Notes: generated by a model not told the origin, from the sequence alone. A DNA stretch of 64,000 nt from Bilabrum cf. latius (GCA_965178125.1 OZ237738.1:1488001-1552000); one strand, 5' to 3'. Counted from the first letter of the stretch, positions 3,588 to 61,729 are shown. Numbers and translations: made by a program.

Positions 3588-3618
<31 letters not shown>

Positions 3619-19400: not shown

Positions 19401-20293
19401 CACCGAGGGAAGAGGCTTGCCAGCGCGGATGGACAGCAAGGGCACTGGCTGCAGAACCTGCAAGTCATGCCAAGCCGTCGGGGCCGTATCCCCCCTGGGT
19501 CTTTTCCTGCCTGCTGCCTCGCGACTCGATGCAATCGGACTGGCGGACACACGTGATGCACTGGCTGGCATCGCACATAGCCCGATGACTTGCACGTCCC
19601 GAGTCTTCGTAACGCAGCATAGAGCACAAGGGCTTGCTCCTGGCAGGACCAGACCGACGGAGCTCTCTGTTGCTGCCTCACCTCGTTCCTCAGAGGCAGG
19701 AGCTGCGGCCCTGTGAGACACTCCGGCCGATGATTGCGCTGTAGCAGACAAGTCCTATCTGGCTCTTTTGGCGAGGGGGGCTGCGGTCTATTTCTCCAGC
19801 TCACGGACTGTGACCTTTGCTGCTCGATCAGCTCGGATGTTCCCGGCAACGTCCCGTGCAGCGTTTGCTTCGGTCTCCCCTGGACTGTATCCAACTGCAC
19901 CCAGAGGCACCCACGAGAGAGGCTGGAACATGGGCATGCTTGCCCCCCCAAAGCAGGCGCTGATCGCGAGCCCGCCAGCAAGATCAAGATGGTCGGGGTC
20001 GAGCGTGCTGCTACCATCCCCTGCACACGCACTCGCCTGCCGTCGACCCCATGCCGCTGATAGAACTACGATCCTTCGAGCGTCAGTGGCCATCGCGATC
20101 CTGGCACTGCCCTTCAGCTGAGGGCTTGCGCCGAGGGGTGGGTGCACTGCACTGTGGCAGGAGCCCAGCACGTGCCCCCACCGACGTGCTTTGGCATCAG
20201 CCGCGAAAGCGTACTGCCACGAGCCTAGTTCCCTCGGGAGGGAGGCCACGTCCAGCACGGCCACTCGCCATCCACTGCTTGATGCATCGATCG

Positions 20294-20333
<40 letters not shown>

Positions 20334-25924: not shown

Positions 25925-26006
25925 CGCAAGATTTAGTTAGCGAATTCGCTAAATGGTGATTTTTGAGGAGAACTGATTCTAGGGTAGAGCCAATTGGCTT
26001 CGATTA

Positions 26007-37300: not shown

Positions 37301-40300
37301 CCACCCTGCTTCCAAAGGACTGCTCTCGCCGCCACGCAGGCCCGCCCCGCGGACGACGTCCTTGAAAGCAACCGCAGGGGCGGATGCGCGGCCCCCGAGC
37401 AGCCACCAAAGGCTCTCGGGGTCCTCCCCTCGCGCCACGAGCCAGGCGCTCGAGGCGCGTGCCTGTTCAGCAACGGCTGTTGCGACTCCGCGGGCACCGC
37501 CTGACTGGGTGCCGGCAGCGGATGCTCTACTCTATGCTGCAGCTGCAGACAGCTCCACGCCGTCTGCCGCCGCTGCCAGAGCGTCGCCATCCTCCTCTTC
37601 CCCGTCGCTTCCACCGTCACTGTCGCTGTCTTCGGCATCCTCGTCCCCGTCTTCCATCGCAGCGCCGCTGTTTCCAGCCACCGCCGCGACGGCCACCACA
37701 GCCCCAGTGGCAGCGGTAGTCCCTGCAGCGGCTGCAAACAGGGCCAGCAGGCATCGCGACACTGCAACGCACTGCACACTGGCAGCGTCTCCGCCCTTCT
37801 GCAGCAGGCTGCCCTGGGCCTCGGCCAAGGGCTCGAGGCACGACCTCCGCAGCAGCCTGAGGCACCGACTAGCCGAGGCGCGGCCGGAGGAGCTCTGCGC
37901 GCCAAGGAGGGACAGCAGGCCCGTCTGCAGGGGCACCAGGGCTGCAAGCACGATGCAAGACACCTCGGCCGAGCCGGAGCTGCCGGAATCACCGCTTGTG
38001 GCAGACAGCAGCACCCTGCTTGCACGACCCAGCGCCACTGTGGTCAGCAGCGACATGGCCTCGACCTGCCCCAGCGGCGCCTCTCGTGCGCACTGGGACA
38101 GCTGGCGAGACAGCGAGGGGGACTCGAGTGCCGTTTGCAGCCTTCGAGCCGCCTAGCTCGCGCCCGGTTGTCCTCTCTCGGTGGCAGCCAGCGGAGCCTG
38201 CGCCACGGCCAGCAGCGCCCTCCATGCCCTGGGCAGCAGCCTCAGCCTCGCGAATGCCCTGACCGCTCGCACGATCGCTCCTGCCTGCGAGGCCTGGCTC
38301 TGGACGGCCTCTCCTGCCGCGCTGTGCCCGCTGGTACCCAGCAGCAGAGGGGCCAGCGCGGGCTCCAGGGCCGATTCCACCGCCGTGGTGGACACGTCGG
38401 CCGCAGCGGCCACTAGCTGCGCCAGTCCCTCCGCCAAGGCACGCTCTTCGCCGGTTGACGACGATCCCTAGGCTGCGCTCTTGGAGGCAGGAGCGGGGCA
38501 CAGAGCTGCCAGCTGCCTGTATCCCTCATCGGAGACCCACCGCGCCCGCAGTGCCTGGGCCGCGATGGCCCCCGCAAAGGCCCTCACCTCCGCTGGGAGG
38601 CTGGCGGGGTCCAGCAGCGTCTGGTCCCGTCCCCACCATGACGACGACGACGACGACGCACCCCCTTCCGGTCCGCCAGAGCCAGCCTCCTCCTGCCCCG
38701 CTGCCCTGGCAGATTCCACGGACGCCCTCACAACGAACCGAAGCATGCACTGCTGCGGGTAGGGGGCGCGCTCCGCTTCCGGAAGGTACACTGCGAACTC
38801 CCTGGCCAATGCAAGCAGCCCAGCCACGCATGAGAGGGAGGCAGCCTCCGGGGCACTGCCGCCCTCAGCTCCGGCTGTGCCACCGGCACCCTTGCCCTCC
38901 TTTCTGGCCCTCTTCTTGGACCGGCCTGCTCGTCCCGATGCGGTGCCGGTCGAAGCGCCGGATCCGCCGACTCCCGACCCATCAGCGGCGCCAAGCAGCA
39001 GCAGCTCCTCCTCCGCCTCCTCCGACAGCCGCACGCCCGCCCTCTCGTTGGCAGCCTCATTGGCCCTGTGCAGGATCCAAGGGGCGGCCAGAGCGAGGAA
39101 CTCTGCCACCAGCCCGAGCCCTGGGCCTGGGTTGAGCTTCCTGAGCCCCAGTGCCCTGGCCACCGCGGCTGCTCCGTCCCTCTTGCCCTTGGACCCTGCT
39201 GAGGAGGACAGCGACTAGGAAGACGGAGCCGGGCCGGCAAGATCAGACCGTCCCAGTGAGCCTGCCGCCGCCGCTGCCTGCAGCACCTCTCTCGCCAGCC
39301 GAGGCAGCATGCGGAGGGCCTGTGCGGGCGCCGGCTGCAGCAGCTCCATGGGGCCGAGGAAGGCTCCGTCCTGGGTGACAACTGCTGCGTCTGCCTGCGT
39401 CGATGACGAGGCAGCGCCCTTCTTGGCCTTCTTTGATTTCTTCTCCTTCTTCTTTTTCTTGCCATTCTCGGCTTCAGGCCCTGGTGCACCGGCCAGCAGA
39501 CCGTGCTTGCTGGCCGATGCTACCGCGCTCTCGTAGGCCCGCTGCACGGCGGAGGGCACCCCCCCTCCTCCTCCTCCTCCTCCTACCACCAGCTCCCTCA
39601 GGGCATCCAGGGCGACGTGCACGAACGGCCTGTGCCTCAGCGCATCCACATCTACCGGCCTGCTGCTACTACTGCCACCTGTCCCGCTGCTGCTGGAGCC
39701 CTGCAGCTCTGCCCTCCCACGCTTGCGGCCCGCTCTGCTAGGCTTCTTGTCGCCCGTGTCTGTCCCCTTCTCCGGTCTCGATTCCTGCCTGCCGTGCTCT
39801 GCCGCCACCGCCAGCTGCCACAGCGCAGTGGACCGCACCCCGGGCGCTCTCCATGCCTCCACACAGTCTGCCCTGAGCAGAAGGGCCCGGATGAGGTCCC
39901 AGCCCGCTGCCTGGAGGCCCCTCCACTGGGTCTGGAGCACGGGCGGGGCAGCTGTGGAGGTCGGGGGGGAGGAGGCAGCCAGCTGGGCTGCGGCAGGTGC
40001 CAGACCGTCCCGATTGCCGACTCGATCCGCGCACAGGGCCAGCAGCATGTGCACCAGTCCACTCTCGCACGCCCTTCTCACACCCGACCTCCCGCTCGAG
40101 GCAGAGCGGCATCCTCTCGCGGCTGCAGAGAGCGCGGCCCGCACAACAGCCACCAGGGGGCAGCGCCCAGTGCCCGTCGAGGCAGCCTCTCCCTTCCTAA
40201 TCCACTGTAGCGCAGGCGCTTGGGCGAGCAGGAGCGATCTCAGAAGCCTGGAGGAGAGCCAGAGGGCAGCGGCGGCGGGCATTGGAGGCCGGCGGCGGGA

Positions 40301-40875
40301 CGGGCCGTGCTGCGATGCCGATGCGCTTGAGACTACCGCAGCGCTGCGAGGCTCGTACAGAATCTTTGTGGTATTTTCGGCCATCCACAAGCATGCCGCT
40401 ACAAGGGCACCGACGCGCGAATCGTCAGAGCTGGTGGTACCTTGCTAGGAAGCAAACGCTGCTCGAATACACCAGCCCACAGTTCCATTCAGAGCCTGCA
40501 ATCCGGGTCACAAAGTTGGAAAAATAAAATTCACAGTAGGCATCCACAAGGTTAAATTGTTGCAGGGCTACAGGTCAGCCTGTATCTTACTTCGGCTACA
40601 ACAGTTGCAGCTTGCGACGAGCTCTCCACTAGAGCTCCTGGACGGCAAACCAACGTTCGGACTGCCCTCCACCTGTCTACCACCGAAACGTCTAACTCCT
40701 TCCCTGACTCTGTGGAGGAAGCGCTCGCAATTGCGATGTCTTTGAATGACTTCTGGATGCTGTGAGTAAGGAGGAACACCCAAGTGCAACAAGCGATGGT
40801 GAAAGCAACAGAAGGTCTGAGTGAGAGTCGTATCAGGCACCGCCCTTACACTTCGTCTAATACAGACGATGACAT
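34352..40875 (-). CDS. URB2: URB2/Npa2-like ribosome biogenesis protein (~2112 aa); exons 40875-40850, 40759-40591, 40495-34352
   Basis: Seven ORF pieces share one frame, joined by 8 TAGs (40445, 39215, 38468, 38153, 37532, 36809, 36119, 34463). C-terminus LLDEARPA[TAG]LQGAFDGL...GARGLLRALHKRWSAERRFRA fits the Urb2 C-terminal domain. Two GTAAG...CAG introns. Ends TGA. Confidence 0.65.
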
Positions 40876-41173
40876 GGCGACAGTTCAGTTCGCGAGCTGT
40901 GGCCGTGCGAATACCGCAGTTTCTGTTGGCTCGAGGGGGTTGCCAATGTGACAAGTGCGTTGCATGATCCGGGGATGGCGGGCCAATCATGATGGTGGAC
41001 CACTGCACTGTGCGCTGGCATGAATGATTGTCTAGTGTTGGTTGATGGCTGCAACTGCATACACGAGCGCAGTGTGCGGAGTGGGGTCGTGCTTGAAAGC
41101 CTCATGCGCTTTACCTGATCTCACCACAGGTCAAGCAACGGTGCCAGCAGTTGACCAAAGCACCAACACAGTG

Positions 41174-42539
41174 TCACACGTCATCGTCCTCAGCAGCAGT
41201 AGCTGCGCCACTGCCACTGCCCCCCGGAGCCGCTGCTTCTCCATCGGCACCAGCGCCGGCACCAGGTGCTGCGTCATCCGCTGCCCCCGCCCCTGCCCCA
41301 GCCCCATCGCCTTTCCCCGCAGTGCCCCCGCCACTCCCACCAGCCGCGGCCCCCGCCCCGCCCCCCGCCTGCCCCTCGGGATGTGCCGCATTGCTGGCCG
41401 CCAGCCACGCGTTGTTCCTCCTGCTGATGATCGCCTTCGCCTCCTCGATCTAGGAGAGAGGCAGCAATTTGTCCGGCCAGTACTCCTCCTCGTCGCACAG
41501 ATACAGCAGCTCCGACAAGCATGAGATCGGGTCATCGCCGCCTTCCTTCAGGGCGAGATGCACGGGCTCGTCTTCGTGTAAGAAGCAAGCGATGTCGGTG
41601 GCCGTCTCGCCGTCCTCGTTTGCCAAGGTGGGGTCAGCCCCAGCCATGAGGTATTCAGCCACCAGCTGAACAGTGTTCAGTCCGGCCGAACACATGAGCG
41701 CAGTTCGGCCGTCCTGCAGTGCCATGGGAAAGAAGTACAGGCCGAGCAGCTCATATTGTGGCTCAGTGTATAAGCTGACAAATTGACTGCAAGTCTCACT
41801 TCGTCCTATACATTGAAGTCAGCACCGCGTTTCCTCAGCAATCGAATGCAGCTAAGGCTGCACTGCTCCGCTGCAAGTATAACAGGTGTCTTTCCGTGCT
41901 GCACCGCCGAGGGGAAGGCGTACAAGACTATGCCTCGTGGTATGGGACATATGGCAATGACCCTGCTGCAGGAATAGCTCTCACTTTGTCTTGCGCGTTG
42001 CAGTCGGAGCCGGCTTCGATGAGCATCTCAAACAGGTGCACGTGCACGCGTTTTGTAGCTAGATGGATGGGCAGCTCGCCATACTGCGTGCATCACTCGG
42101 CTGATAAAACCATGGCAATGTCATTATTCAGTTTTCGGACGTGCGTGGTGCCAACCAGCGTACCACTGCGAAGACTTACAGCATTGGGTGCGTTCACGTC
42201 AGCCCCTGCCTGCAGCAAGCACTTCAAGAAATCCACATGCTCCCTTTTATGAAGACAGCACAAATGCAACGCAGTGTGCCCCGAAGGATTCTGTGGCGGG
42301 AGAGGAAGGGAGACCGGCGTCTTGGTAGAGCAGGTGCCAGCAACTCAAACACGGAGCATTGGATTGTGTTGGCAATGAGCAGCTAGCATCGAACCTCGCG
42401 AGTTTATGACTCATGATGTGCTTCTTACTTGTAGCCCAGCTGATAGTTCCTCTGCTCCTATCGAGCCACTTGCGAGGCGGCCTTGCAGCTCCTTCGTTCG
42501 ACATTCCTTGGCAATCTCGTACAAAGTCTTGGCTTCCAT
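41174..42539 (-). CDS. Ankyrin-repeat protein, copy A (~319 aa); exons 42539-42429, 42290-42180, 42083-41985, 41898-41800, 41713-41174
   Basis: GHTALHLCC, GELPIHLA, GKTPVILAA, GRTALM and GADVN/GADP motifs. Phase-0 GT-AG introns. TAGs at 41806 and 41450. Ends TGA. Confidence 0.88.
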
Positions 42540-42893
42540 GGTACGTCTCGGCGTCCCGTAGCTTTCAGCAATAATCTGCGCATTTGAGCGGCAAGTAGGC
42601 TGATCTGCAAGCATGAAGGCGACTGTCGCGAGCAGTAGTGGTCGGGCAGTCGAGAGCAGTCGCCCACGCATTGCGCGCGATGGCCTCACATCAGCGGCAC
42701 AGCGAGGCCGTAGAAGAGTGCAAGAATAGCCGCGTTTGGGAGGGTAAACGTGAACTAGGGCTATGTTGCGCAGGAGGGGAGGTGATCAATTTCCAGTAAC
42801 CGGCGGGTTCTGCAGCCACCGGCAGTGATGAGTGGACGTGGCAGATCAAGCCACACTGCACATAAAACCCAGACTACATTGCGGTCAAGGAAA

Positions 42894-44535
42894 ATGAAGG
42901 GAAATTGTATTGCACTTGTGCTTGTCGTTGGAGCTCTGGCTTGCGTGTCCTTGATAATCACTCATTCAGGCCAGCAGGTGCTCCAAGCGGGCGGTGCTCG
43001 TGGCGGCGCTACCAGAGTCTCGCGATTCAGGTCTCCTGGGCATGTCAGCCTGCCATCAGCCAACATGGACGCTTTCGATCAACAATCGGCTATGAATGAG
43101 ACAATTCCTGGCGAAAAAGTACAGTCAAAGCAGCAGGACATGCCAAGATTCGCCTCAGTCGCGGTCCCCTCGTTGACGCGGCCTCTCGCCCTCATCCACG
43201 GGATTAGCATGGCCAGACGCAACGCAAGGTGCGTTGACGGAAAGTTCAAGTGGGCAAGTGCCTGGGGAAACAACTGCGACCGCTTCAGAAAGGAGGGCGA
43301 GCCAGCATGCATCGCGGCAGCAGCCCAAAGCCTGCTGGCTGGCGTCGACGATGCCGGGATCTCGAGCGCTGGCGCGACTGACCGCGAAAAAGGATCCAAC
43401 GCAGCGGACGCCATTAACGAATTCTTCCAGGAGCCTGGTTTGATTCTCTGCCACCTGCATGTCGGCGACGATCTGCCTGCAGCAGTGGAGCAGCTGGCGG
43501 TCGCTCTCTACCCGGCGAATCTCGGCACGTCGAGGGCTGATTCCTCGCAGGTTTCAACGCGTACAGCGATGCGTACGGCACCCGCAACGATTACTACGAC
43601 TTCCTCGTTGGCCTCCCCGAAGAAGAGGATGACGCAACTCTTCTCTACTACAGGAGCCGCGCCAGCGATTTCCTTGGCAAGACACCACTGGAGGTTGCGA
43701 CCACCTTCCAGACCCACGGCGAGGATGTTGCCGGGCTCGTGTCCGCGTATCAGCAGGCAAAGTTCGTGCCTGGGGATGCACAGGTCATCGTGGACGACTT
43801 TCGGGAGAAGCTCACGGCTTGCTTGGACGCTCTGCCGATGAATGGGTCTCGCTACAGTGTAGTTGGCGATTGGATCAACGTCACGTCAGCCGGACTCAAC
43901 ACAATCAATATCGTCAAGTTGCAGCCCGCTAATAAACTTCATATGACGATCAAGCCGGCAACGTCGACGTAGGACTCCGTTTACCTTCACCATCTGGCCA
44001 GCCTGAACGAGACAGTCGTGCAACACTTCCGCGGCCCGGTTTGCGCTGCTCAGGAAGAAGTCATTGGGGTCCGCATGTCTGTTATGTCATCGCTTGAAGC
44101 AATTCGCGGCTCTACTGAATTCGGCAATTGGGCCGCACTTCGAATGCAAGCAGACAACGAGACCGGTCGCTACTTGCATGACGTCGAGCTGCACGCTTCG
44201 CTGATGCAGCGTCAGGTAGTGCGTCCAGCTCCAGAGATGGATCCAATACGGTTGGCGTGGACCGATCCGCGCATGGCTCCGCTAAAACGGTGTTTTCATG
44301 AGTGGCACGAGCACGCGCACGAAACGCTCGCAGAAGCAGGGCTCCACCTCCCTCTTGCGATGTCACGGCGTCACATGTCTGTACTGGCAAAATAGAGCGG
44401 AATAACATCTTGCCTAAGATATCTGATGAAGCCATCAAGAGGCACGTGCGCCGTATGGGGGCAGTCCTTGGACAAATCAATGGGTTCTGTGCGGCTCAAA
44501 CTGCAGCGCATGTCTGTGTCTTTCGCCGCGGCTGA
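42894..44535 (+). CDS. Type II membrane/secreted protein of unknown family, copy A; frameshifted near the 3' end (possible pseudogene)
   Basis: Signal anchor MKGNCIALVLVVGALACVSLII. Frame switch at ~43550, TAG 43970, 11-nt insertion at ~44363-44373 relative to copy B. The homologous C-terminus ends at TGA 44533-44535. Confidence 0.65.
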
Positions 44536-44705
44536 AGGTAAATTCCAGCAAATGTGCTGAAAGGAATACGTTTTTGTAGTCCTGATGCTGAGTGTTCCAG
44601 AAATTACTTGCTTCATCATTGAGTTCCACAAGGATTCGCGCATGCACCGAAGCTTCAAGTTCACTTCCTCTGCTTCTTCTTTCCCTTCCCTTTCTTCCCG
44701 CCCCC

Positions 44706-44807
44706 GAACACCCAAGTGCAACAAGCGATGGTGAAAGCAACAGAAGGTCTGAGTGAGATTCGTATCAGGCACCGCCCTTACACTTCGTCTAATACAGACG
44801 ATGACAT
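44706..44807 (-). pseudogene. Orphan copy of URB2 exon 1 and partial intron 1
   Basis: ATG TCA TCG TCT GTA TTA GAC GAA GT|GTAAGG identical to 40875-40844, truncated at the duplication junction before the acceptor. Confidence 0.7.
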
Positions 44808-45097
44808 GGCGACAGTTCAGTTCGCGAGCTGTGGCCGTGCGAATACCGCAGTTTCTGTTGGCTCGAGGGGGTTGCCAATGTGACAAGTGCGTTGCATGAT
44901 GGCGGGCCAATCATGATGGTGGGCCACTGCACTGTGCACTGGCATGAATGATTGTCTAGTGTTGGTTGATGGCTGCAACTGCATACACGAGCGCAGTGTG
45001 CGGAGTGGGGTCGTGCTTGAAAGCCTCATGCGTTTCACCTGACCTCACCACAGATCAAGCAATGGTGCCAGCAGTTGACCAAAGCACCGACACAGTG

Positions 45098-46429
45098 TCA
45101 CACGTCATCGTCCTCAGCAGCAGTAGCTGCGCCACTTCCACTGCCCCCCGGAGCCGCTGCCTCTCCATCGGCACCAGCGCCGGCACCAGGTGCTGCGTCA
45201 TCCGCTGCCCCTGCCCCTGCCCCAGCCCCATCGCCTTTCCCCGCAGTGCCCCCGCCACTCCCACCAGCCGCGGCCCCCGCCCCGCCCCCCGCCTGCCCCT
45301 CGGGATGCGCCGCATTGCTGGCCGCCAGCCACGCGTTGTTCCTCCTGCTGATGATCGCCTTCGCCTCCTCGATCTAGGAGAGCGGCAGCAATTTGTCCGG
45401 CCAGTACTCCTCCTCGTCGCACAGATACAGCAGCTCCGACAGGCATGAGATCGGGTCATCGCCGCCTTCCTTCAGGGCGAGATGCATCGGCCCGCTTTCG
45501 TCCATTTCACACGCGATATCCTTGGCCGTCTCGCCATCTTCATTCCTGGCGCAGGGGTCAGCCCCAGCCATGAGGCACTCAGCAAAGAGCCAGGCGTGCG
45601 CTAGGCTGCTAGTTCGCATGAGCGGAGTTTGCTTGTCCTGCGGTGTCAGCCTGCTCTAGACCAGCGGCAGTGCGAATTGGACTTTACGAAGCCGTAGGAT
45701 GACGAGGCGTATGCAAGCTTACTTTATTCGGTATGTTGAAATCAGCGCCGCGCCTTCTCAGCAATTGAATGCACCCAACAGCTCGAGCGGCAATGGCACG
45801 AGATACAGGCGTCATCCCAGACTGCACGGTCCAGTAGGCATCGGGAAAAAGTGGACAGATAAGCATATTTGGCTGGTTTCCCCTGCAACAGCAACAGCTC
45901 TCACTCTGTCTTGCGCGTTAAGATCAGACCCAGCATCGATGAGAAGCTCAAGCAGATGCTCGTGTCTATGTTTAGCAGCCAAGTGAATTGGCAACTCGCC
46001 TCGCTGCGTGAGGAAATTTTGCCAAATTCTTGCAACTAAAGTGTTGCCAGCAGTTTGATTGCACCGCAGTCACATAGCGTAGACTTACAGAGTTTGTCAC
46101 ATTCACGTCAGCTCCTGCCTCAAGCAAGCACTTCAAGAAATCGGCGTATTCCTTAATGTGCATGCAGCACAAGTGCACGGCAGTATTGCCCAGTTCGTTC
46201 TGCGGCGAGCGAGGAAACAAGACCGCCCTGTCAGGTTCTTTATGGGCCTTAGGATTACAATACTCTGCAAGCTACCAGAAGTTAGCACCGTAAGTCGTGA
46301 GCATGCATGAAATCTTACGTCCAGCCTCTTTGATAAATCATCTGCTGCAATCGAGCCGCTTGCTAGGCGGCCTTGAAGCTCCTTCGTTTGGCATTGATTC
46401 GCGATCTCATATAAGGTTTTGGCTTCCAT
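45098..46429 (-). CDS. Ankyrin-repeat protein, copy B (5 exons)
   Basis: MEAKTLYEIA start. Repeats GNTAVHLCC, RGELPIHLAAK...NAQDR, SGMTPVSRA...GADFN. Same intron positions as copy A. TAG 45374, TGA 45098. Confidence 0.88.
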
Positions 46430-46805
46430 CGCAGTCTTTGGCAACCGAGTAAGCTTGAACTGCGCTGTCATGCAAGGAACGGACTTTGTTGCCAATCTAG
46501 GCTCCAGCCTGTGATAATACGCAAGACCTCGTCGGGCAACCATTCGAATGCTATTGGCGCACAGCTGCAGTACTGTTTAGTGTTTAGCTTACAGTACAGA
46601 GAGGCAGGCGCTTTGCAGAGTAGACGAATTATTCTGAATTTGCAACGATTAATTCAAATCGGACGAGTAACACGCGTGTAATGGTGCGAACACAGTGTCC
46701 AGAAACTGGTACATGCGACATCCATGGATGATGGAGTGACCGTGCGAGCCAGTGCGGATGACAGCCCGTTTCGGCTAGAGTCAGGCTTGTACCAGACAAA
46801 GGGAA

Positions 46806-48436
46806 ATGAAGATCAGCGCTGTTGTACCAGTGCTAGTTGTAGGAGCCCTGGCTTGCGTGTCCTTGATAATCACTCATTCAAGCCAGCTGGTGCTCCAAGG
46901 AGATTAGAAAGGCGCGACGAGAGTCTCGCGATTCAGGTCTCCTGGGCATGTTGGCCTACCATCAGCTAATATGGACGCCCCTGCGCAACAATCGGCTATA
47001 GATGAGACAATTCCTGGCGACAAGGTACAGTCAAAGCATCAGGACATGCCAAGATTCGCCTCGGTCGCAGTCCCCTCGTTGACGCAGCCTCTCGCCCTCA
47101 TCCACGGGATTAGCATGGCCAGAAGTAATGCAGAGTGCGATGATGGCAAATTTAAGTGGTTAAAAGCCTGGGGAAACAACTGCGACCGCTTCAGAAAGGA
47201 GGGCGAGCCAGCATGCATCGCTGCAGCAACCCAAAGCCTGCTGGCTGGCGTCGGCCATGCCGGGATCTCGAGCGCTGGCGCGACTGACCGCGAGAAAGGA
47301 TCTAACGCAGCGGACGCCATCAGCGAATTCTTCCAGGAGCCTGGTTTGATTCTCTGCCACCTGCATGTCGGCGACGATCTGCCTGCAGCAGTGGAGCAGC
47401 TGGCGGTCGCTCTCTACCCGGCGAATCTCGGCACGTCGAGGGCTGATTCCTCGCAGGTTTCAACGCGTACAGTGATGCGTACGCCGAGCACAACGAGTTC
47501 TACAACTTTCTTGTTAACCTTACCGATGTAACGCCCGATCCAACTCTTCGCTACTACAAGAGCCGCGCCAGCGATTTCCTTGGCAAGACACCACTGGAGG
47601 TTGCGACCACCTTCCAGACCCACGGCGAGGATGTCGCCGGGCTCGTGTCCGCGTATCAGCAGGTTAAGTTCGTGCCTGGGGATGCACAGGTCATCGTGGA
47701 CGACTTTCGGGAGAAGCTCACGGCCTGCTTGGACGCTCTGCCGGCGAACAGGCCCCGCTACCACGTCGGCGCTGGTGGGGTTGACGTGACTCTCGGGGGG
47801 ATCGTCACCAACAACATCGTCAAGCTGTAGCCCGCAGACATGCTCCACATGACAATCAACCCAGTAGCCTCGGCGCAGGACTCCGTTCACCTGCATCACC
47901 TCATGACCCAAGACGCCGCCGTCGTTGAGGCATTCCGTGGACCCGTGTGCGCCGCCCAGCGTGAAGTAACCGGAGTCCGCATGTCCGTCATACAGTCGCC
48001 TCAAGCAATTCGCGGCTCTACTGAATTCGGCAATTGGGCCGTACTTCGAATGCAAGCGGACAACGAGTCTGGTCGCTACTTGCATGACGTCAAGCTGCAC
48101 GCTTCGCTGATGCAGCGTCTGCTCGTACCAGGTCCAGGTCCCGCCGCCAGGAGAATTCGCTTAGAATGGACCGATCCGCGCATGGCTCCACTGAAGCAAT
48201 GCTTTCATCAGTGGCACGAGCATGCGCACCAAACGCTTGTTGCAGCAGGACTTCGCTTCCCTCTTGCCATGCGCGTGTGTACAGGCAGGATCGAGCGCAC
48301 TGACATTTAGCCTGCCATATCTGATGCGGCCATCAAGAGGAGCATTGCTGGCGGCATGAAGCCCGTCATTGATCAGATCAATGGGTACTGCTCCGTTCAA
48401 GCTGCTGAGCAGGACTGTGCGCTTCGCCGTCCCTGA
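46806..48436 (+). CDS. Type II membrane/secreted protein of unknown family, copy B (apparently intact)
   Basis: MKISAVVPVLVVGALACVSLII anchor. TAGs at 46905, 47828, 48308. Same frame switch at ~47456. TGA 48434-48436. Confidence 0.7.
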
Positions 48437-48643
48437 GAAGCGAATTGCCACGACTGTGCTGCCTTGCTTCAATTGGCTGATGTGCCACTAGAAGTGGCGA
48501 TGAGGGCCTACTGAGAGATTAGCGTCGTGATGATGAATTGGCGGCGCGTGCCGCGGCGTGACCGTTTTCAATCAGGGTTCTCTTGCTTGCTAGATCCATA
48601 TGCTGAAAGTAAAGCCAAACCTATTCGCGCATTCACCAAAGCA

Positions 48644-51600
48644 TTACTTTCTCTGCTTTTTCTTTCCCTTCCCTTTCTTCCCGCCCCCGCTGGAGGCAGC
48701 AGCCTCCAACTCAGCGGCCTCTGTGTCTGCCCCTCGCAGCTCCTCGTCCCACACACCCCCCCTGCCGCCGTTCCTGACCGCACCCGCCAGCCTCCATGCC
48801 GCTGACACCTCCCTCATCGCCGAGTTGGGCGGCCCTCCATCCTCCTCTGCAGGCTGCTCGCCCCCCTCCTCCTCCTCATCACGCCCCGCCTGCAGGCCCT
48901 TCCGCTCGCCGCCCGTGGTGCTAGCCAGTGCGCGTGCGTGCAGTGCATCCACTACCAGCCCGCTATCATCCTGGAGCACCCGTCCCGCCTGCTCCGCCAG
49001 CTCCTCGATGGCCAATGGGGGCTGAGTCACCAGATGACGACCCACGGCCGACCCACCAGCACCAGCACCAGCACCAGCACCAGCACCGTTGACTCCTCGC
49101 CTCAGGGCGGCCGCTCCCGATTGGGCACTCGACCAGGCCGACAGCGCCTCCCGCACAGCGCCAGGGGGGCACTCCTTCCGCAGCGCCCGAGAGGTGGACA
49201 AACCGGCGGTTGGATCCCCCGCAGCCACAGCAGCTGCGGCTGCCTCCAGGGCGGCTGCCTCATCGTCCTCGTCCCCGCCCTTCTTGCCCTTGCCCTTCGC
49301 CTTGGGCTTTACCTTGCCCTTGCCCTTGGCTTTCCCTTTGTCTTTGCCCTTCCCCTTGCCTTTGCCCTTCCCGCTAGCCTCCTCCCCTTCCTCCTCTTCA
49401 GGCAGCTGCACCCAAGCAGGCACAGCCACCAGCCGCTGCCCCTCCGACAGGTTGGGCCCAGCCCCAGTCGCACCCCCGACGACAGGGGAGAGCCCGTTGG
49501 TGCTCCCGCCGAGCCGCAGCCACTCCCCAAGCACCGACCTGCTCCCACTCCCACCTCCACCCCCACCGGTGCCCTGTCCGGGCACGGCCTGCTCCTGCTG
49601 GCTCGCGCTCCGAGCCGCCTCCCCGAAATCGTCCCAGCACTCCACCACCTCCTTGGCATCGCCACCGAAGCAGGCGGATGCACTCCTCAGGACCGCCCCA
49701 CGCCGTGCCACGGCCGCGTCCTCCCGCACACCCCTCCTCCAGGCGTCTTCGGCTGCCCCGGCCACGGCCTGTGGCCGGCGAGAAGCAGCCCGCCTGGCCC
49801 ACAGCAGGGCCGACAGCAGGTGCTGGATGCTGGCAAAAGGGGCGGGCAGGTGCATCCACTCCCTCGACCACTCCCCTCCCTGGTCCTGGTCCTGATCTTC
49901 ATCTTCATCGCCCCCTGCTGCCCCCGCCTCGCCTGCCCCTGCCTCCAGCACCTCGTCAGCAGCACGAGAGGCATCGAGGGCGGAGAGAGCTGCCCCACTA
50001 GCACGGCCATGCTTGTGCTTGTCCTGCCTGTGCTTGTCCTCTTCCTCCTCCTGGCTGGCAGCAGCAGCAGCAGCGGCAACACCGCTGGCCCCGCCCGCTT
50101 CAGCACCCCCGTGGCTCACTGACCCGACTCTATTCAACCGCTCCAGCAGCCCTGGATCTTCTGCGTCCACCTCCAGCACGGCCTGCTCCACCTCTGCGAT
50201 GGCACCTGCAGGCACACGGGCCGGCTGCAGCGCGCGCCTCAGCTGCTAGGCAGACATGCTCCATGTCAGGCCGCTGGTCCCGCCCCCGCTGCCGGCTCGC
50301 TGGTCCACCGCAAGGGCGGCGAGAGCCTGGGCGGGCGCAAGAGGCGCCACTGGAGCTTCTGCGACTGCAGCAGCATCCTCGGTGCCATTTTCCATTGCTT
50401 CCTTCCCCTCCCCGTCTTCCCCGGCAGACACACCCGCAGACACGGGGGGCCCCTCCCAGTCCGCACGCAGGCCGGCGCCCCCCTGCCCCTCCTCCTCTGC
50501 AGCCGCCCTCGTTGCCTCGAGCAGCCAGCCGGACAGGGCCAGGGCGAGTCTCCTGGCGCCGCGCCCGTCCTTGGCAGGCATCCAGCGGAGAGACTCCTCC
50601 GTGGACCGCGTGGCAGCCTCTTGTTCCCTGGGGGAGAGTGGCCTCTGCAGCCAGTCCTGCATGCACGCGTCCATCACGGCCTCTCCCGGTTCGGCCCCCC
50701 GCCGCTGGCCCTCGCTGATGGCCTGCTGCAGACGCTCGGCGGCGAGGCCCCAGCGAGCTCCGCCGCCACCCCGCCCCAGGCCAGCTGCCGTGCCAGCCAC
50801 CCACGCACCCAGAGCAGACCAGTCCGTGACCACGCCGGGCTCGCTGGGGCCAGAGCTGAACATGCCCACGAACATCCCGCGGGACGTGCAGGTGCCCAGC
50901 GCCCGCTGCCAGGCACTGCCGCCCGCTGCCAGGACTCGGCCCCCTTGCAGCGGCGCGGCACCCGCGGCAGAGCGCATGAGCGCCGCCTGCACGTCCTCCA
51001 GCGGCAGCCCGATATCCTCGTCTTCCTCTTGTTCTTCTTTTTGCGTACCATCGCCCTCCTGGCCGCCCTCCCCCTGGTCCGGGTCGTCTGCAGGGCTGGC
51101 ACGAGTCGCGTTCCTGCACCACCCGCACGCGGCAAGTACCTCTGCGGCTGTGCTCTCCGCTGCGGGCCAGGCGTCCACAGGTGCCAGGTCCAAGCCACCT
51201 TCTTCTTCGGCGGCAGCGCCTGACTCAACTCTGCCCTCGGTCGGCCCGCCTTCGTCTGCCTCGGGTGGCAGCAGACCCACCGCCTGGATGTGCCTAGCTG
51301 CCTCAGCCTCTGCTTCATCGAGAGACAGGGGGACAGGAACCACCTGTTCCTCCTGCTGCTGCTGCTGTTCCTGCTCGAGATCGATGCCGAAGATGTCTGC
51401 CAGGCTGCTGCCTGCAGCCCAATTTCTCTCGGCAGGCACCTGTCTCTCAACTGACGCAAAGGCATGCGCTGCCCTTGCCTTCCTGGCGCGGTGCTCGGCC
51501 TCTGCAGCCTGCAGGTGCCCCACTAGCACCTCCGCAGCTCCGGCAGAGGGCCGCAGCACGTCATGCCCCGCCTCTTCGTCGGCTCCGAGCACTCCCGCGG

Positions 51601-54600
51601 GAGGAACCGCGCCCACAGCGCGGGATGCTTCGGGTCCAGCGGACAGACCCGCGCGGTCCTCTGGCAGAGCAGCGTCTGCCCTCGTGGCCTCTGCCACCCA
51701 GGCTGCACCCGAGTCATGCTCGCCTGCAAAACTGCTGACACCGGCGCCATCACCATCAGCGCCAGAATCAATGGCAGGCAGGGCATGGAACACCGTGGAG
51801 GGGACGGCGCTGCGGATCGGAAGACCAAGGGCCGCACGCACCCCGCTGCCGCCCCGGGATCCACCAGGGCAGGCCATAGTGGCCCGCCTCAGTCGGTCCA
51901 CCAGCACGCGCACAGCCTGACGGTCCTTGCTCGCCTGCAGGGCGGCCCGCTCCTCCGACAGAGCTGCAAGCCCCGCGGCCTCCTGCGCGGCTGCCAGCAC
52001 GGCCTGGGCCCCCGTGACCGCAAGGGCCGCGACGCGCTGCGCGGCGCGCACGGCTTCCGTCCGAGCGGCCAGCACGGCGGCAGGGGGCAACAGCACCAGT
52101 GGCTGCCCCCCTGACCCACGCACGGTGCACTGCTCGACTGTCTCTTGCATTTCCTCATCGCGCTGCTGCTGCGCCTGCTCCCACTCCTGCCGCAGAGACT
52201 CCAGGTCCCGAGGGCCGGCAGCCGCGCCTTTGCCCTTGCCTTTACCCTTGTCCTTCCCCTTGCCCTTGGCGGCCTTCTTCTTGTCCTTCCCCTTGGATTT
52301 CCCCTTGCCGCTCTTCTTACCCTTGTCTTTCGCGGACGACGCAGCCTCAGCTGCCGCCTCGGCCTCGGCCTCGGCCGCCTCTGCTGCCGCCTCGAGCGCC
52401 TCCTCGATGGCATCCCGTGCCTCCTCATCCGCCTGCTGCTCCTCCTGCGCGAGAAGGATGGCGGCCGACTCAGCCTCTGCCGCCTCCAGCCGGACCCGCG
52501 CCCGCACGGCCCGCAGCCGTTTGCTCTCCGCACGAGCCAGAAGAGCACGGGCGGCCAGCTGCCGGCGGGCCCACGCGTCTGCGTCCGCAATCACCGCGCA
52601 GCACACCGCAAGGGCCTGCCACGCGGCACCGCGGACTGCCGCGGCGCATGCCTCCACGGCTGCCCTGCGCCACTCGCGCTGCCCCCTCCGCCACGAGGCC
52701 TCCCGCCGCGCCTGCCTGCGTCGTGCAGCCGCCCCCTTGCGCTCCTTGGCATCCCATTCCGCCCACGGGCCATCCTCCTCCTCGCCTGCCGCGGCCTTCT
52801 TGCCCTTGTCTTTGCCACCCTTCTTGCCCTTGTCCTTCTTGCCGCCCACATCGCCGCCATCGTCCGCTGCGGCAGCAGGAGCCACAAGGGCCAGAGGGCC
52901 GGGACCGGGGCTGCAGCCGCCTCCCACCCACGGTGCAGGCGGAGGGGACTCACCCCAGGCAGGCAGCAGGTGCAGGACACCGCTCTCTTCCCCGTCGTCG
53001 TCCCCCGTTTCGTCCTCATCGGGCCCTCGCTGGCCCACAAGCAGCGGCATCGGCAGGCCGGTTTCGAGGCAGGCGCGAGCCTCCCTCTCCTCCTCGTCAT
53101 CACTCTCGGAGGCCTCGGCATCCGCAGCGCCCTTTTTGCCCTTGCCCTTGTCCTTGCCCTTACCCTTGCCTCCTTTCCCGGCATCGTCTTCCTCGTCGTC
53201 AGGCAAAGGCTCACCCGCGGCCCATGCCAGCCGAAGGGCCCGCGTCCGGCCGGCAGACTGCAGCGCCTGCACCCACTCGCCCCAGCTGCCCGTGGGACCC
53301 TCCTCCTCGGCAGCGCCACTTCCCTTGCCCCCCTTCTTGCCCTTGTCCTTGGCCCCCTTCTTCTTGCCCTTGGCGGCTTTGCCACCCGAGGCATCGTCCG
53401 ACCGGTCCGCGCTGGCGCGCACCGCGTCCCATCCGAAACCGAACCACGCATCGGGCGCACTTACGGACGAACCGTGCGGACCCCCAGACTCCCCACCGTC
53501 ACCAGCGCCCGAAGCTGGGGCACCGGCGCCGTCCGCGCCCTCCTGCTGCTTGGATGCACCGGAGTCCATGGCCGGCAGGGACAGCAGCAGCTTCCCGTGG
53601 AGCATCTCCTCCACCGCCCTGGCCCCCGCCTCGCCCGCAGGCAGCCTCTCGTCCAGCTGGGCCACCCTGACCGGCTCTGGTGCGCCTCCCGCGGGACCTG
53701 CCTCCAGGTGAGCCCTCGGCTGGGCGAGGGCCCGTAGGACGGCTTGCTGGGTGTGGGGTGTAAGGGTGGTCCGGAGGGAGGGAGGCAGGGCGGCGAGGAG
53801 GGCGGCGATGGCCGACTGCATCTGCTGGGCGTCGTCGCCGGCGCCTTCCTCGTCTGCTGCCGCCCCCTTCTTGTCCTTCTTGCCCTTGTCCTTCTTCTTG
53901 TCTTTCCCCTTTTTGTCCTTGCCCTTGCCCTTCTTCCCGCCGCTTGCCTCCTCTTGGTCGTCACCTTCGGCTGGCATCACCATGGGGCAAGAGCCCAGCG
54001 AGCCTGCCCCGAGTCCCTGCGGCACGGGCAGGCCACCCGTCACGCCATCGAAACGCACCATCGGTCGCGCGGGAAGGACCAGATTGCCACGGGCAGTAGC
54101 ACCAGATGCGCTTGCAGTACCCGCAGCATCCTGTCCACTTGCGGCCTCTGGAGACTGGTGCTGCTCCTGTGCATCGCCTGCATCCACCACCAGTCGAACG
54201 GAGGCACCAGCAGCAGCCGCCCCCGCTGCCAGGCACGCCTCTCGCCCCGCAAGGGCACGCCACGCCTCCCAGGATGCCACGCTGCCCCATGCCTTGGCAG
54301 AGGCAGCGGCCGCCCTCGGAGCCGCGTCGGCTGCCGCCGAGGCAGATCGCACGGCCCACCGCCTCAGGCCCGCAAGCCATGTCGACACGTCCTCGGCAGC
54401 CTGCGCCGCGGCGAGAAGTTCCGCTTCTGCGAGGCGCCGCGCACTGCGCCTCGCCTGCGCACCGTCGCCCTTGTGAGATGCGAGCGCCGTCGCTGCCCTG
54501 CGCTTGCCCTGCTCCAGCCACGAGAGCGGGTCCAGCGGGTCCTGAGGCATGGGCAGCGACACAACGGCTCTGTCGCTTCCTGGGACTGGGGGCGGGCTAT

Positions 54601-60600: not shown

Positions 60601-61729
60601 CCTCCTGCCAGCCCACCCCCACCACGCCCAAGCGACCGGCCGTGGCCTCAAAGGCCGCGATCGACTCGGCCGCCTAATTTGACGTCACGGCGCGCACGGC
60701 CGCTCGCTTGGCGGCCCGCTTGCGAGCTGCATCGGCCCGCTGCCTCGCGACCGTGGCCTCTCGCGCCAGCGCCACTTCTTGCGCCCGCTGCCACTCGCGG
60801 GCCCCGTGCGCCGCCCGGGCCGCCGCCGCCATCCTGTGTGCCCTGAGCGACTGCAGCCTGCCCAGCCTCTGCCGCTGCAGCCAGGCCTGGTGCGCGTCTC
60901 GCTTGCGCCTCTGGAGGGCGTCCCTCTCCTGCCTCAGCTCCTCGATCTCGGCCGCGTGCTTGCGGAAGGAGACGGCCTCCAGTCGGCGGCCCTCCGGCGG
61001 TGCCTTGATCTGCAGCGTCTGGGCCACGCCCTGATCCATGGCCTTGGCGAACTGCGCGGGGGCGGGGGGGGCCGCGCCGCTGAATGTGGCTGCGAGCAGC
61101 TTCCTGGGAGCCTGTTCCTCCTTGCCCTCTGGCTCCTTCGAAGAAGCAGAAGCGGCGGCGGAGCCTTGTCTCCGCTGGGGCAGGTGGGGGTGCTCGTCCC
61201 TATCCCCGGTCGCTGCGAGGTGTTGGGAGGGAGCGGGGGCCCGGCTCTCCCGGGGCTTGACCAGAGAGCCGCGGCCCACGGGCCTGCGAAGCAGCGGGGC
61301 GGCTACGCCCCGGAGCTGGTACACGATCCGAATGGCAATTTCCTGGGCGCCTTTCTCCTGCCGGGCCACTCGGCCGACGTCGTCTGCGGTGGCGCGGATG
61401 CCCAGGCGGCGCAGGGTGGCGCTCGCCCGAGACCAGTTCTCAGAGGCTACGGCCGCCCGCGGACCATCGCGCCACTTGGGCCAGTCCTGCTGCTATCCAA
61501 GCGCCCACAAGCAGCGACCCATCAGATTTCCCGATTGCAGCGACGCGGTCAGCGCCGTGTCGGACTTGAGAGCTTTGAGCACCCGTTCGGGCTTGCCGCC
61601 TCCCACGAGGGGGCGCAACTCCGAGCCGGGCGGTACATCCAGCAATGACACGCGGGTAGAATCGTCTGCACGCTTCGTCAGGGGGAATAACACAGTGTCC
61701 CGAAGCCAGGCACGAAGCTGCTTGCTCAT
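48644..61729 (-). CDS. Giant SPEF2/CPC1-like flagellar protein with N-terminal calponin-homology domain (~4361 aa)
   Basis: One frame from ATG 61729 to TAA 48644, with 11 TAGs (61493, 60674, 59468, 59033, 57587, 56303, 56216, 56006, 55568, 55151, 50246). N-terminus MSKQLRAWL...SGNLMGRCLWALG[TAG]QQDW...NWSRASATLRRLGI...RIVYQL matches the SPEF2 CH domain, followed by coiled coil. Confidence 0.75.

What the first reader, a model, noticed from the sequence alone, without database searches (positions are those of the whole stretch)
43922..47878. Reciprocal TAG/CAG swaps between duplicated genes identify the residue as Gln
Copy A reads AAG TTG CAG CCC (43922) where copy B reads AAG CTG TAG CCC (47828). 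Sixteen codons later copy A reads TCG ACG TAG GAC TCC (43970) where copy B reads TCG GCG CAG GAC TCC (47876). TAG behaves as a synonym of CAG in both directions, with protein conservation continuing downstream. This is an internal control needing no database. One further TAG (48308) aligns with TTG, a single-base change.
Basis: seen in the sequence. Interest (0 to 1): 0.88.

Follow-up and report, generated by a model that had tools for sequence, protein, structure and literature searches.

The report
Stop codon TAG encodes glutamine here
In this GC-rich eukaryotic genome the usual stop codon TAG sits inside genes and behaves like a glutamine codon, so annotation with the standard code would wrongly cut its proteins into pieces.

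Summary
In a 3.9-kb tandem duplication, copy A has CAG (43922) where copy B has TAG (47828). A has TAG (43970) where B has CAG (47876). B's TAG 48308 faces TTG in A.

Two swaps alone are weak. A mutation-only model makes CAG the partner 21-46% of the time. Both copies also carry a frame change, and A carries a second one.

The conclusion still holds:
- Nine window ORFs (15,782 codons, the longest 4,514 aa) hold 54 in-frame TAG and no internal TAA or TGA.
- A metagenomic relative (L001, about 70% protein identity) also has in-frame TAGs. Of 16 aligned TAG sites, 11 face CAG or CAA (log10 likelihood: Gln -10.0, next Glu -21.3).
- A 94%-identical xylanase has Gln at 3 of 3 window TAG sites.
- One TAG lies in a GH10 column that is 59 Glu and 44 Gln of 110.
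- TAG 47828 lies in a KLQPAD motif kept in a 35%-identical homologue.
- TAA is not sense: 0 seen, against 6.2 and 14.8 expected. TGA and TAA end the ORFs.

This is a UAG-only-to-Gln nuclear code (NCBI table 15 type). The tRNA, eRF1, mRNA and peptides could not be examined.

The parts
40774..44705 (.). Tandem duplication, unit 1. It holds an ankyrin-like gene on the - strand and copy A on the + strand.
   Evidence: Direct repeats spaced 3890-3983 nt. blastn self-hits 40774-41659/44706-45583 at 94% and 42918-44362/46830-48271 at 85%.
44706..48690 (.). Tandem duplication, unit 2. It holds an ankyrin-like gene on the - strand and copy B on the + strand.
42894..44535 (+). Copy A of a lineage-restricted gene with a hydrophobic N-terminus and no Pfam family. 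It reads in frame 0 to about 43540, in frame 2 over 43541-44362, then in B's frame over 44377-44535 after an 11-nt insertion. The homologous TGA stop is at 44533-44535.
   Evidence: Translations, alignment, third-position excess of differences in each frame, dN/dS 0.31/0.31/0.20, no Pfam hit.
46806..48436 (+). Copy B. It reads in frame 0 to about 47446 and in frame 2 over 47447-48436, with TGA at 48434-48436. In-frame TAGs are at 46905, 47828 and 48308.
43922..43924 (+). CAG in A facing TAG 47828-47830 in B, within a K-L-Q-P-A-D/N motif.
   Evidence: The distant homologue P0138 has Q here (KLQPADELH).
47828..47830 (+). TAG in B facing CAG 43922 in A.
43970..43972 (+). TAG in A facing CAG 47876-47878 in B.
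   Evidence: P0138 has I at this variable position.
47876..47878 (+). CAG in B facing TAG 43970 in A.
48308..48310 (+). TAG in B facing TTG 44410-44412 in A.
   Evidence: (family D9). A zero-difference contig of run X5 spans 48012-48614.
43538..43541 (+). Frame change from frame 0 to frame 2, shared by both copies (B: 47444-47447). It lies inside a 149-nt block, 43418-43566, that is identical in A and B.
   Evidence: P0138 is collinear with the frame-0 part and the frame-2 part. Identical run. No stable RNA fold downstream.
44363..44373 (+). 11-nt insertion in A relative to B, which shifts A's frame. B's frame stays open in A up to the shared TGA.
1620..15155 (+). 4,511-codon gene with a C-terminal HECT domain. 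It has 11 in-frame TAG and ends in TGA.
48644..61729 (-). 4,361-codon gene with 11 TAG after the first ATG (13 in the open frame). It ends in TAA. Its N-terminus is orthologous to L001 9453-11126.
   Evidence: All 13 TAGs lie in zero-difference contigs of run X5 (table 8).
16440..21290 (-). WD40-repeat gene with 9 in-frame TAG, ending in TGA.
   Evidence: Relatives P0133-P0135.
23069..25924 (-). CFAP58 (flagellar coiled-coil) gene with 5 in-frame TAG, ending in TGA.
34352..40384 (-). 2,010-codon gene with 7 TAG after the first ATG, ending in TGA.
29848..32196 (+). ORF with 5 in-frame TAG, ending in TGA.
62026..63231 (-). GH10 xylanase gene. TAGs stand at codons 113, 125 and 158 of the open frame (nt 63052-63054, 63016-63018, 62917-62919). 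It ends in TGA.

Best explanation
The window is nuclear DNA of a GC-rich eukaryote whose genetic code has lost TAG (UAG) as a stop and reads it as glutamine. TGA, and apparently TAA, still terminate. TAG is therefore a third, minor Gln codon, about 7% of Gln codons here and about 21% in the relative L001. C-to-T and T-to-C changes at the first position of CAG/TAG are then synonymous. That is why two recently duplicated genes show CAG/TAG in both directions.

Shown here:
- TAG is a sense codon in selected genes.
- It behaves as Gln in paralog, ortholog and family comparisons.
- TAA is not a sense codon.
- A second, diverged member of the lineage shares the trait.

Inferred, not shown:
- Decoding by a tRNA-Gln with anticodon CUA, one anticodon change away from the CAG reader.
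- An eRF1 that no longer recognises UAG.
- A path in which the near-exclusive use of TGA as terminator freed TAG for capture.
For: **TAG is sense.**
- Six long ORFs have 51 in-frame TAG, 0 internal TAA or TGA, and 6-72 TGA in each off-frame.
- Nine ORFs, 15,782 codons: 54 TAG, with 8 TGA and 1 TAA, all terminal.
- About 219 TAA+TGA would be expected at the off-frame rate of 1.44% per codon.
- ORFs of 4,514 and 4,393 aa open only if TAG is read.
- One ends in a HECT domain that runs to the family's C-terminus.

**The TAGs are not assembly errors.** Contigs of run X5, with 0 differences, cover B's 48308, all 13 TAGs of the 4,393-aa frame and the 3 of GH10. An X7 contig covers 3 (table 8).

**TAG behaves as Gln.**
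- Window against L001, 924 aligned codon pairs at 69.5% and 70.9% identity. The 16 aligned TAG sites face CAG x9, CAA x2, GAG x2, TCA, TCG and AAC.
- 11 of 16 is like the 0.60 self-conservation of ordinary Gln codons.
- Against the background Gln frequency of 5.3% the binomial tail is 3.5e-11.
- Log10 likelihoods: Q -10.0, E -21.3, H -21.8, K -22.1, S -23.9, L -42.1.
- An adjacent reciprocal swap occurs: window TAG-CAG against L001 CAG-TAG.
- P0013, a 94%-identical GH10, has Q at 3 of 3 window TAG sites.
- The GH10 column of TAG codon 125 holds 59 E, 44 Q, 3 N, 3 H and 1 L among 110 residues of 119 homologues.
- B's TAG 47828 faces CAG in A and Q in the 35%-identical homologue P0138, in the KLQPAD motif.

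**The copies were under selection.** dN/dS is 0.31 (176 codons), 0.31 (226 codons) and 0.20 (22 codons) in the true frames, and 0.57-2.0 in wrong frames.

**TAA is not sense.** Expected 6.2 in the window and 14.8 in L001 if TAA:TAG equalled CAA:CAG. Observed 0 and 0, with P 0.002 and 3.6e-7.

**The trait is shared by relatives.**
- L001 has 35 in-frame TAG in 3,517 codons.
- Relatives' predicted proteins P0135 and P0134 stop exactly before window TAG codons 71 and 505.
Against: - 8 of 22 distinct TAG sites do not face Gln.
- In the WD40 gene an 85%-identical relative has W, L and S at TAG codons 786, 809 and 837. The first two stand in otherwise perfectly conserved flanks.
- In CFAP58 none of 5 TAG sites faces Q in the two solved homologues shown: E/D, K/K, K/S, K/K, K/K.
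- The HECT TAG faces R, V and M in the solved homologues shown.
- Against a pure single-step mutation model, 14 of 22 has P = 0.00002 to 0.07, depending on the transition bias assumed.
- No tRNA gene is in the window or in L001, L002 or L004, and no eRF1 is available.
- No run on record as RNA holds the stretch, so retention of UAG in mRNA and the residue in the protein are unseen.
- The duplicated genes that prompted the finding carry frame changes, so their present expression as full proteins is unproven.
- Whether TAG also terminates some genes cannot be judged from 12 ORF ends.
Confidence: 0.88

Rival explanations
1. The genomic TAGs are corrected in the mRNA by U-to-C editing to CAG. The code would then be standard, and the DNA would only look recoded.
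For: It predicts the same DNA pattern: TAG interchangeable with CAG, and Gln in relatives. No run on record as RNA was available to exclude it.
Against: - Run X6, guessed to be RNA, has zero-difference contigs over 49597-50392 and 55839-56236. These contain three TAG codons left unchanged. The RNA label is only a guess.
- Site-specific U-to-C editing of hundreds of nuclear codons is not an established mechanism (my own knowledge, not from a call).
- Stop-to-Gln recoding is well documented (passages of PMC11687900 and PMC5304391).
Confidence: 0.04
2. TAG is sense but encodes another residue: Glu as in peritrichs, Lys, Leu, Ser or Trp.
For: - CFAP58 TAG sites face conserved K at three positions.
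- WD40 sites face W, L and S.
- 2 of 16 L001 sites face GAG and 2 face Ser codons.
- The GH10 column at codon 125 has more E than Q.
Against: - The empirical likelihood favours Q by 11 or more log10 units over every other residue.
- K appears at 0 of 22 sites, and at 0 of 110 in the GH10 column.
- The 94%-identical GH10 shows Q, Q, Q.
- The KLQPAD motif has Q.
- W, L and S are all single second-position neighbours of TAG. They fit missense changes at tolerant sites.
Confidence: 0.04
3. [quoted passage not shown] This is known for other stop codons in some ciliates and in Blastocrithidia.
For: It cannot be excluded. ORFs were defined by TAA/TGA, so a terminal TAG would go unnoticed. Only 12 ORF ends were seen, 9 in the window and 3 in L001.
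Against: - Where a family fixes the C-terminus, the ORF ends at TGA. This holds for HECT, matched to profile position 304 of 306, and for GH10, with the same tail in L001 and other relatives.
- No TAG stands in the last residues of these proteins.
Confidence: 0.08
4. The two copies are dead pseudogenes, and their TAGs are nonsense mutations that say nothing about decoding.
For: - Both copies change frame at 43538-43541 / 47444-47447 relative to the collinear homologue P0138.
- A also has an 11-nt insertion.
- CAG is the likeliest mutational neighbour of TAG anyway, at 21-46%.
Against: - dN/dS is 0.31, 0.31 and 0.20 in the true frames on both sides of the frame change.
- Differences between the copies pile up on third codon positions.
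- The shared frame change lies in a 149-nt block identical in both copies. It may therefore be recent gene conversion or a consensus error.
- The code inference does not depend on these genes.
Confidence: 0.1

Closest known systems
UAG-only to Gln nuclear code with UAA and UGA kept as stops (NCBI table 15 type). Reported for the fornicate Iotanema spirale and the ciliates Hartmannula sinica, Trochilia petrani and Protocruzia tuzeti (passages of PMC11687900; PMC5304391; PMC9161772).
   Same: Only UAG is reassigned, and to glutamine. UAA is not a sense codon. In-frame UAG is common in ordinary conserved genes.
   Different: - Those organisms are ciliates and an anaerobic metamonad.
- This window is 55-73% G+C. 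It has intron-free ORFs up to 13.5 kb and genes for HECT, CFAP58, GH10 and CRAL-TRIO.
- TGA is almost the only terminator, at 11 of 12 ORF ends.
- Its lineage is unnamed.
- The tRNA-Gln(CUA), and the change in eRF1's GTS motif reported for Iotanema, could not be looked for.
UAR (UAA+UAG) to Gln (NCBI table 6). Found in many ciliates, some ulvophyte green algae, hexamitin diplomonads, oxymonads and the aphelid Amoeboaphelidium protococcarum (passages of PMC5304391; PMC6299283).
   Same: Stop-to-glutamine reassignment, and TAG interchangeable with CAG.
   Different: TAA is not used as a sense codon here: 0 seen against 6.2 expected in the window and 14.8 in L001. One long ORF ends in TAA.
UAG-only reassignment to other residues. 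Leu in Rhizaria sp. exLh and in uncultured phyllopharyngean ciliates; Ser in the green alga Scotinosphaera (passages of PMC11687900).
   Same: The meanings of UAG and UAA are uncoupled.
   Different: The residue differs. Log10 likelihood here is -42.1 for Leu and -23.9 for Ser, against -10.0 for Gln.
Amber-recoded bacteriophages that read TAG as Gln (crAss-like, Lak and others). Seen only in search listings and abstract starts.
   Same: Same codon and same residue. Standard-code gene callers fragment the genes.
   Different: Those are viruses of bacteria that carry suppressor tRNAs. Here the genes are cellular eukaryotic genes (HECT, CFAP58) in a chromosome-like 64-kb stretch.

Membership tests
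UAG-only to Gln nuclear code (NCBI table 15 type) | In-frame UAG is frequent in genes that are clearly functional. | tested here: met
   54 in-frame TAG in nine ORFs, with no internal TAA or TGA. Pfam domains HECT, CFAP58_CC, WD40 and GH10 are intact.
UAG-only to Gln nuclear code (NCBI table 15 type) | UAG positions correspond to glutamine in relatives and homologues. | tested here: met
   - 11 of 16 sites against L001; log10 likelihood Q -10.0 against E -21.3.
- 3 of 3 against P0013.
- The Glu/Gln column and the KLQPAD motif.
- Exceptions: W, L, S in the WD40 gene and K-rich columns in CFAP58.
UAG-only to Gln nuclear code (NCBI table 15 type) | UAA is not a sense codon. | tested here: met
   0 internal TAA in 15,782 window codons and 3,517 L001 codons. 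Expected 6.2 and 14.8 if TAA were used like CAA relative to CAG.
UAG-only to Gln nuclear code (NCBI table 15 type) | UGA and UAA terminate genes. | tested here: met
   Window ORF ends: TGA 8, TAA 1. L001: TGA 3. HECT and GH10 end where their families end. The single TAA end is not checked against an orthologue.
UAG-only to Gln nuclear code (NCBI table 15 type) | UAG is never used as a terminator (complete reassignment). | tested here: inconclusive
   Only 12 ORF ends were seen, and ORFs were defined by TAA/TGA.
UAG-only to Gln nuclear code (NCBI table 15 type) | A tRNA-Gln with anticodon CUA. | not testable with these tools
   No tRNA gene in the window or in L001, L002 or L004. No whole genome is held.
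UAG-only to Gln nuclear code (NCBI table 15 type) | eRF1 altered so that UAG is not recognised, for example in the GTS motif as in Iotanema (PMC9161772, passages). | not testable with these tools
   eRF1 is not in the window, and no genome is held.
UAG-only to Gln nuclear code (NCBI table 15 type) | UAG kept in the mRNA and Gln found in the peptide. | not testable with these tools
   No holder on record as RNA. Only contigs could be laid. No proteomics.
UAR to Gln code (NCBI table 6) | Both TAA and TAG are used as Gln codons inside genes. | tested here: not met
   TAA is absent inside all 13 ORFs examined. Reading with table 6 barely lengthens the long ORFs.
UAG to Leu / Ser / Glu codes | UAG positions correspond to Leu, Ser or Glu in relatives. 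| tested here: not met
   Partners at 16 sites: L 0, S 2, E 2. Log10 likelihoods -42.1, -23.9 and -21.3, against -10.0 for Gln.

The most novel reading that the evidence does not exclude
This is an undescribed, independent origin of the UAG-only-to-Gln code in a GC-rich, non-ciliate eukaryotic lineage. At least two diverged members share it: the window organism, and the L001 organism at about 70% protein identity. TGA serves as near-exclusive terminator. TAG and CAG turn over fast: no TAG is shared among 16 aligned sites at 70% identity. If so, a stop codon can be captured under GC pressure rather than the AT pressure usually invoked, and the uncoupling of UAG from UAA becomes testable in a new background.
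Probability: 0.4. Interest if true: 0.75.

Novelty: new member of a known kind. Interest (0 to 1): 0.62.

Why it matters
**Annotation.** Every gene caller that uses the standard code will cut this organism's genes at TAG. The public protein collection already holds such fragments from its relatives: P0134 and P0135 end exactly at TAG sites, and P0014 and P0016 start just after one. Any annotation, proteome or phylogenomic matrix for this lineage needs TAG = Gln.

**Biology.** Nuclear codes that separate UAG from UAA are few. The passages read name four UAG-to-Gln cases, UAG-to-Leu in a rhizarian and in one ciliate lineage, and one UAG-to-Ser case. A GC-rich example that ends genes almost only with TGA bears on how a stop codon is freed and captured. 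Paired with its eRF1 and tRNA-Gln genes, it would give a further natural test of how eRF1 tells UAG from UAA.

Tried and rejected
- **38-nt GT..AG intron** (43529-43566 / 47435-47472) to join frame 0 to frame 2. Rejected: P0138 is collinear across the junction with no room for it.
- **Programmed -1 frameshift.** No slippery heptamer was seen. The downstream RNA folds no better than shuffles, z -0.48 and +0.47. Left open, not supported.
- **Read laying**.
  - Only 40 of 955 differences and 15 of 161 joints were printed. I could not read the letters of relative X12 at TAG sites or at the frame change.
  - The joints 45486>45554 and 45583>46102 have no CT..AC ends. They coincide with the places where unit 1 and unit 2 lose similarity. 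I read them as unit-1 contigs laid on unit 2, not as introns.
- **No RNA holder listed**.
- **CFAP58 search at near lengths.** One distant hit only.
- **Representative search with copy B.** 3 hits in 1.84 billion proteins, so no family name.
- **tRNA scans.** None found.
- **Rfam on the window.** No match.
- **Pfam on L001's other ORFs.** One weak Nipped-B_C hit.
- **Protein atlas.** It says only 'Eukaryota'.
- **L002.** Same species as L001, 11 differences in 7,049 nt, so not counted separately.
- **Whole genome.** Not held.
- **The search of earlier findings.** Closed.
- **Literature.** Seven searches found no paper on a GC-rich non-ciliate with UAG-only = Gln. Supplementary files were not consulted.
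- **An aphelid or green-algal identity.** Considered, but left as untested guesses.

Full report
**1. The observation**

- Copy A has AAG TTG CAG CCC with CAG at 43922. Copy B has AAG CTG TAG CCC with TAG at 47828.
- Sixteen codons on, A has TCG ACG TAG GAC TCC (TAG at 43970) and B has TCG GCG CAG GAC TCC (CAG at 47876).
- B's TAG at 48308 aligns with A's TTG at 44410.

The copies lie in a two-unit tandem duplication, 40774-44705 and 44706-48690. Each unit also carries an ankyrin-like gene on the other strand. Over 1208 ungapped positions the copies differ at 173, in a mosaic pattern. Some 60-nt windows show 0-4 differences, while 43851-44090 shows 17-27 per window. The two swaps lie in that most diverged part.

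**2. Are the swaps more than chance?**

Not on their own. I weighted TAG's eight sense neighbours by their abundance in this window and by a transition bias of 1 to 4. CAG is then the expected partner in 21-46% of cases. Two or more CAG among three alignable sites has probability 0.11-0.44.

**3. State of the duplicated genes**

Each copy starts with a hydrophobic N-terminus (MKGNCIALVLVVGALACV... and MKISAVVPVLVVGALACV...). It reads in frame 0 for about 215 codons and then continues in frame 2.

A search of 1.84 billion representative proteins found three hits. One of them, P0138 (291 aa), aligns with the frame-0 part (27% over 124 residues, E 4e-7). It then aligns, without a break, with the frame-2 part (35% over 174 residues).

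So both copies carry a frame change at 43538-43541 / 47444-47447. That is equivalent to one base missing or two extra. This rules out the 38-nt intron I had first considered.

The frame change sits inside a 149-nt block (43418-43566) that is identical in A and B. This points to recent gene conversion, or to a consensus error made twice. The downstream RNA folds no better than shuffled sequence, so a programmed frameshift has no support.

A also has an 11-nt insertion at 44363-44373. Beyond it B's frame stays open in A, up to the homologous TGA.

Selection has nonetheless acted on both parts since the duplication.
- Differences pile up on the third codon position of frame 0 upstream and of frame 2 downstream.
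- dN/dS is 0.31 (176 codons), 0.31 (226 codons) and 0.20 (22 tail codons) in the true frames. It is 0.57-2.0 in the wrong ones.

The genes are not old pseudogenes. Whether they are intact today is open.

The family has no Pfam model. Its only other relatives found are a 2,495-aa protein with 25 repeats of one segment and a weak third hit.

**4. TAG is a sense codon throughout the window**

- Read with TAG as a residue, the window opens into ORFs of 4,514, 4,393, 2,051, 1,620, 955 and 782 aa.
- These six frames hold 51 TAG and no internal TAA or TGA. Their off-frames hold 6-72 TGA each.
- Over nine ORFs (15,782 codons) there are 54 in-frame TAG. 52 of them lie after the first ATG.
- The only TGA (8) and TAA (1) are terminal.
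- At the off-frame rate of 1.44% per codon, about 219 TAA+TGA would be expected.

The ORFs carry eukaryotic domains: HECT at the very C-terminus of the 4,514-aa protein, CFAP58, WD40, CRAL-TRIO and GH10.

Zero-difference contigs of run X5, which bears a different organism code, cover 17 of these TAG codons (table 8). They are not slips of this assembly.

**5. Which residue?**

Three kinds of comparison were possible.

(a) Close relatives in the public protein collection.
- A 94%-identical GH10 (P0013) has Q at all three window TAG sites.
- In the WD40 gene, fragments from an 85-97%-identical relative stop exactly before TAG codons 71 and 505. This fits TAG at the same codons.
- The same relative shows W, L and S at TAG codons 786, 809 and 837.

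(b) A metagenomic relative.
- L001 (L002 is the same species: 11 differences in 7,049 nt) carries the GH10 gene and the N-terminus of the 4,393-aa gene. Protein identity is 69.5% and 70.9%.
- It has 35 in-frame TAG in 3,517 codons.
- I aligned with X at every TAG so as not to favour any residue. The 16 aligned TAG sites (5 of the window, 11 of L001) face CAG x9, CAA x2, GAG x2, TCA, TCG and AAC.
- One case is a reciprocal swap in adjacent codons: TAG-CAG in the window against CAG-TAG in L001.
- The 11 of 16 matches the self-conservation of ordinary Gln codons in the same alignments, 0.60.
- Using the substitution counts of those 924 codon pairs, the log10 likelihood of the partners is -10.0 for Gln. 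It is -21.3 for Glu, -21.8 for His, -22.1 for Lys, -23.9 for Ser and -42.1 for Leu.

(c) Deep conservation.
- GH10 TAG codon 125 falls in a column with 59 E, 44 Q, 3 N, 3 H and 1 L among 110 residues of 119 homologues.

Over 22 distinct TAG sites the nearest comparator is Gln at 14. The rest are Leu 2, Ser 2 to 3, Glu 2, Trp 1 and Asn 1. Lys and Tyr never appear.

**6. Evidence that does not fit neatly**

- In CFAP58 the five TAG sites face E/D, K/K, K/S, K/K and K/K in the two solved homologues printed.
- The W and L in the WD40 relative stand in perfectly conserved flanks.

I read these as single-step missense changes (AAG, TGG or TTG to TAG) that are survivable because TAG is read through as Gln. 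That is an inference. These sites do not outweigh the likelihood above, but they should be rechecked genome-wide.

**7. TAA and TGA**

TAA never occurs inside the 13 ORFs examined. If it were used like CAA relative to CAG, 6.2 would be expected in the window and 14.8 in L001 (P 0.002 and 3.6e-7). Reading with table 6 barely extends the long ORFs.

Eleven of 12 ORF ends are TGA and one is TAA. The code is therefore UAG-only to Gln, not UAR to Gln.

Whether TAG also ends some genes cannot be judged from 12 ends. The HECT and GH10 genes end at TGA where their families end.

**8. Mechanism**

Shown:
- sense use of TAG;
- Gln-like behaviour;
- TAA excluded;
- the trait shared by a diverged relative.

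Inferred from what is established for other stop-to-Gln codes (passages of PMC5304391, and PMC9161772):
- a tRNA-Gln(CUA);
- an eRF1 that has lost UAG recognition.

Neither could be sought. No genome is held. No tRNA lies in the window or the loci.

The rival of U-to-C editing predicts the same DNA pattern. It is only weakly opposed by unchanged TAGs in contigs of a run merely guessed to be RNA.

**9. Comparison with what is known, and novelty**

The passages I read in PMC11687900 list UAG-only to Gln in Iotanema spirale, Hartmannula sinica, Trochilia petrani and Protocruzia tuzeti. They list UAG to Leu in a rhizarian and in uncultured ciliates, and UAG to Ser in Scotinosphaera.

This window shares the defining behaviour of the first group. 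It differs in genome character: 55-73% G+C, very long intron-free ORFs, and a TGA terminator.

Seven literature searches found no description of such a case. I file it as a new member of a known kind.

**10. Verdict**

- The vehicle genes are themselves imperfect.
- The code is the table 15 type.
- Interest is moderate to high. It is essential for annotating this lineage, and it is a further natural case of uncoupling UAG from UAA, in an unusual GC-rich setting.

Noticed in passing
window 43418-43566 and 47324-47472: A 149-nt block is identical in both copies, although the copies differ by 14% overall. It contains the shared frame change at 43538-43541 / 47444-47447. This suggests recent gene conversion, or a consensus error repeated in both copies.
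   Followed up: partly
window 44363-44373: An 11-nt insertion in copy A shifts its frame. B's frame remains open in A for 53 more codons, up to the homologous TGA. The lesion therefore looks recent, or is an error.
   Followed up: partly
window 40000-48700: G+C falls to 0.55-0.60 over the tandem duplication, against 0.65-0.75 in the flanking genes. The duplicated genes encode proteins with hydrophobic N-termini from a lineage-restricted family.
   Followed up: no
window 61490-61495 and L001 9699-9704: Adjacent codons are swapped between orthologues: the window has TAG-CAG where L001 has CAG-TAG (LWALG-X-Q against LWAIG-Q-X).
   Followed up: yes
window 18791-18947 (WD40 gene, codons 786 and 809): Two TAGs face W and L in an 85%-identical relative, within about 50 otherwise identical residues. 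These would be radical Q/W and Q/L differences in a conserved stretch if TAG is Gln.
   Followed up: partly
window 23069-25936 (CFAP58): Three of five TAG sites fall on positions where both solved homologues shown have Lys.
   Followed up: partly
window 53401-63400 (runs X1-X8): Runs labelled with four different organism codes, from four studies, hold half or more of this stretch's sampled words. Laid contigs of three of those codes (runs X5, X6, X7) match it with zero differences, at low depth beside very long unrelated contigs in one. The source organism may be a co-cultured or contaminating minor member. I did not try to identify any sample.
   Followed up: no
L001 6424-9180 (- strand): The relative has an extra 918-codon ORF with 8 in-frame TAGs between the GH10 gene and the large gene. 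These two genes are adjacent in the window. The ORF has no Pfam family.
   Followed up: partly
window 48644-61825 (- strand): The 4,393-aa protein carries many Lys/Gly-rich repeats (KGKGKDKKGKDKKKDKGKKDKKG). One is the 70-nt repeat 53863-53932 / 55480-55549. Contigs of several runs jump between these repeats.
   Followed up: no
proteins P0014, P0016, P0017, P0022, P0023: GH10 homologues at 46-48% identity share the unusual C-terminal tail ...DPTRPWAY. All are N-terminally truncated gene calls, and one starts right after the TAG column. More distant members of the lineage may also read TAG as sense.
   Followed up: no
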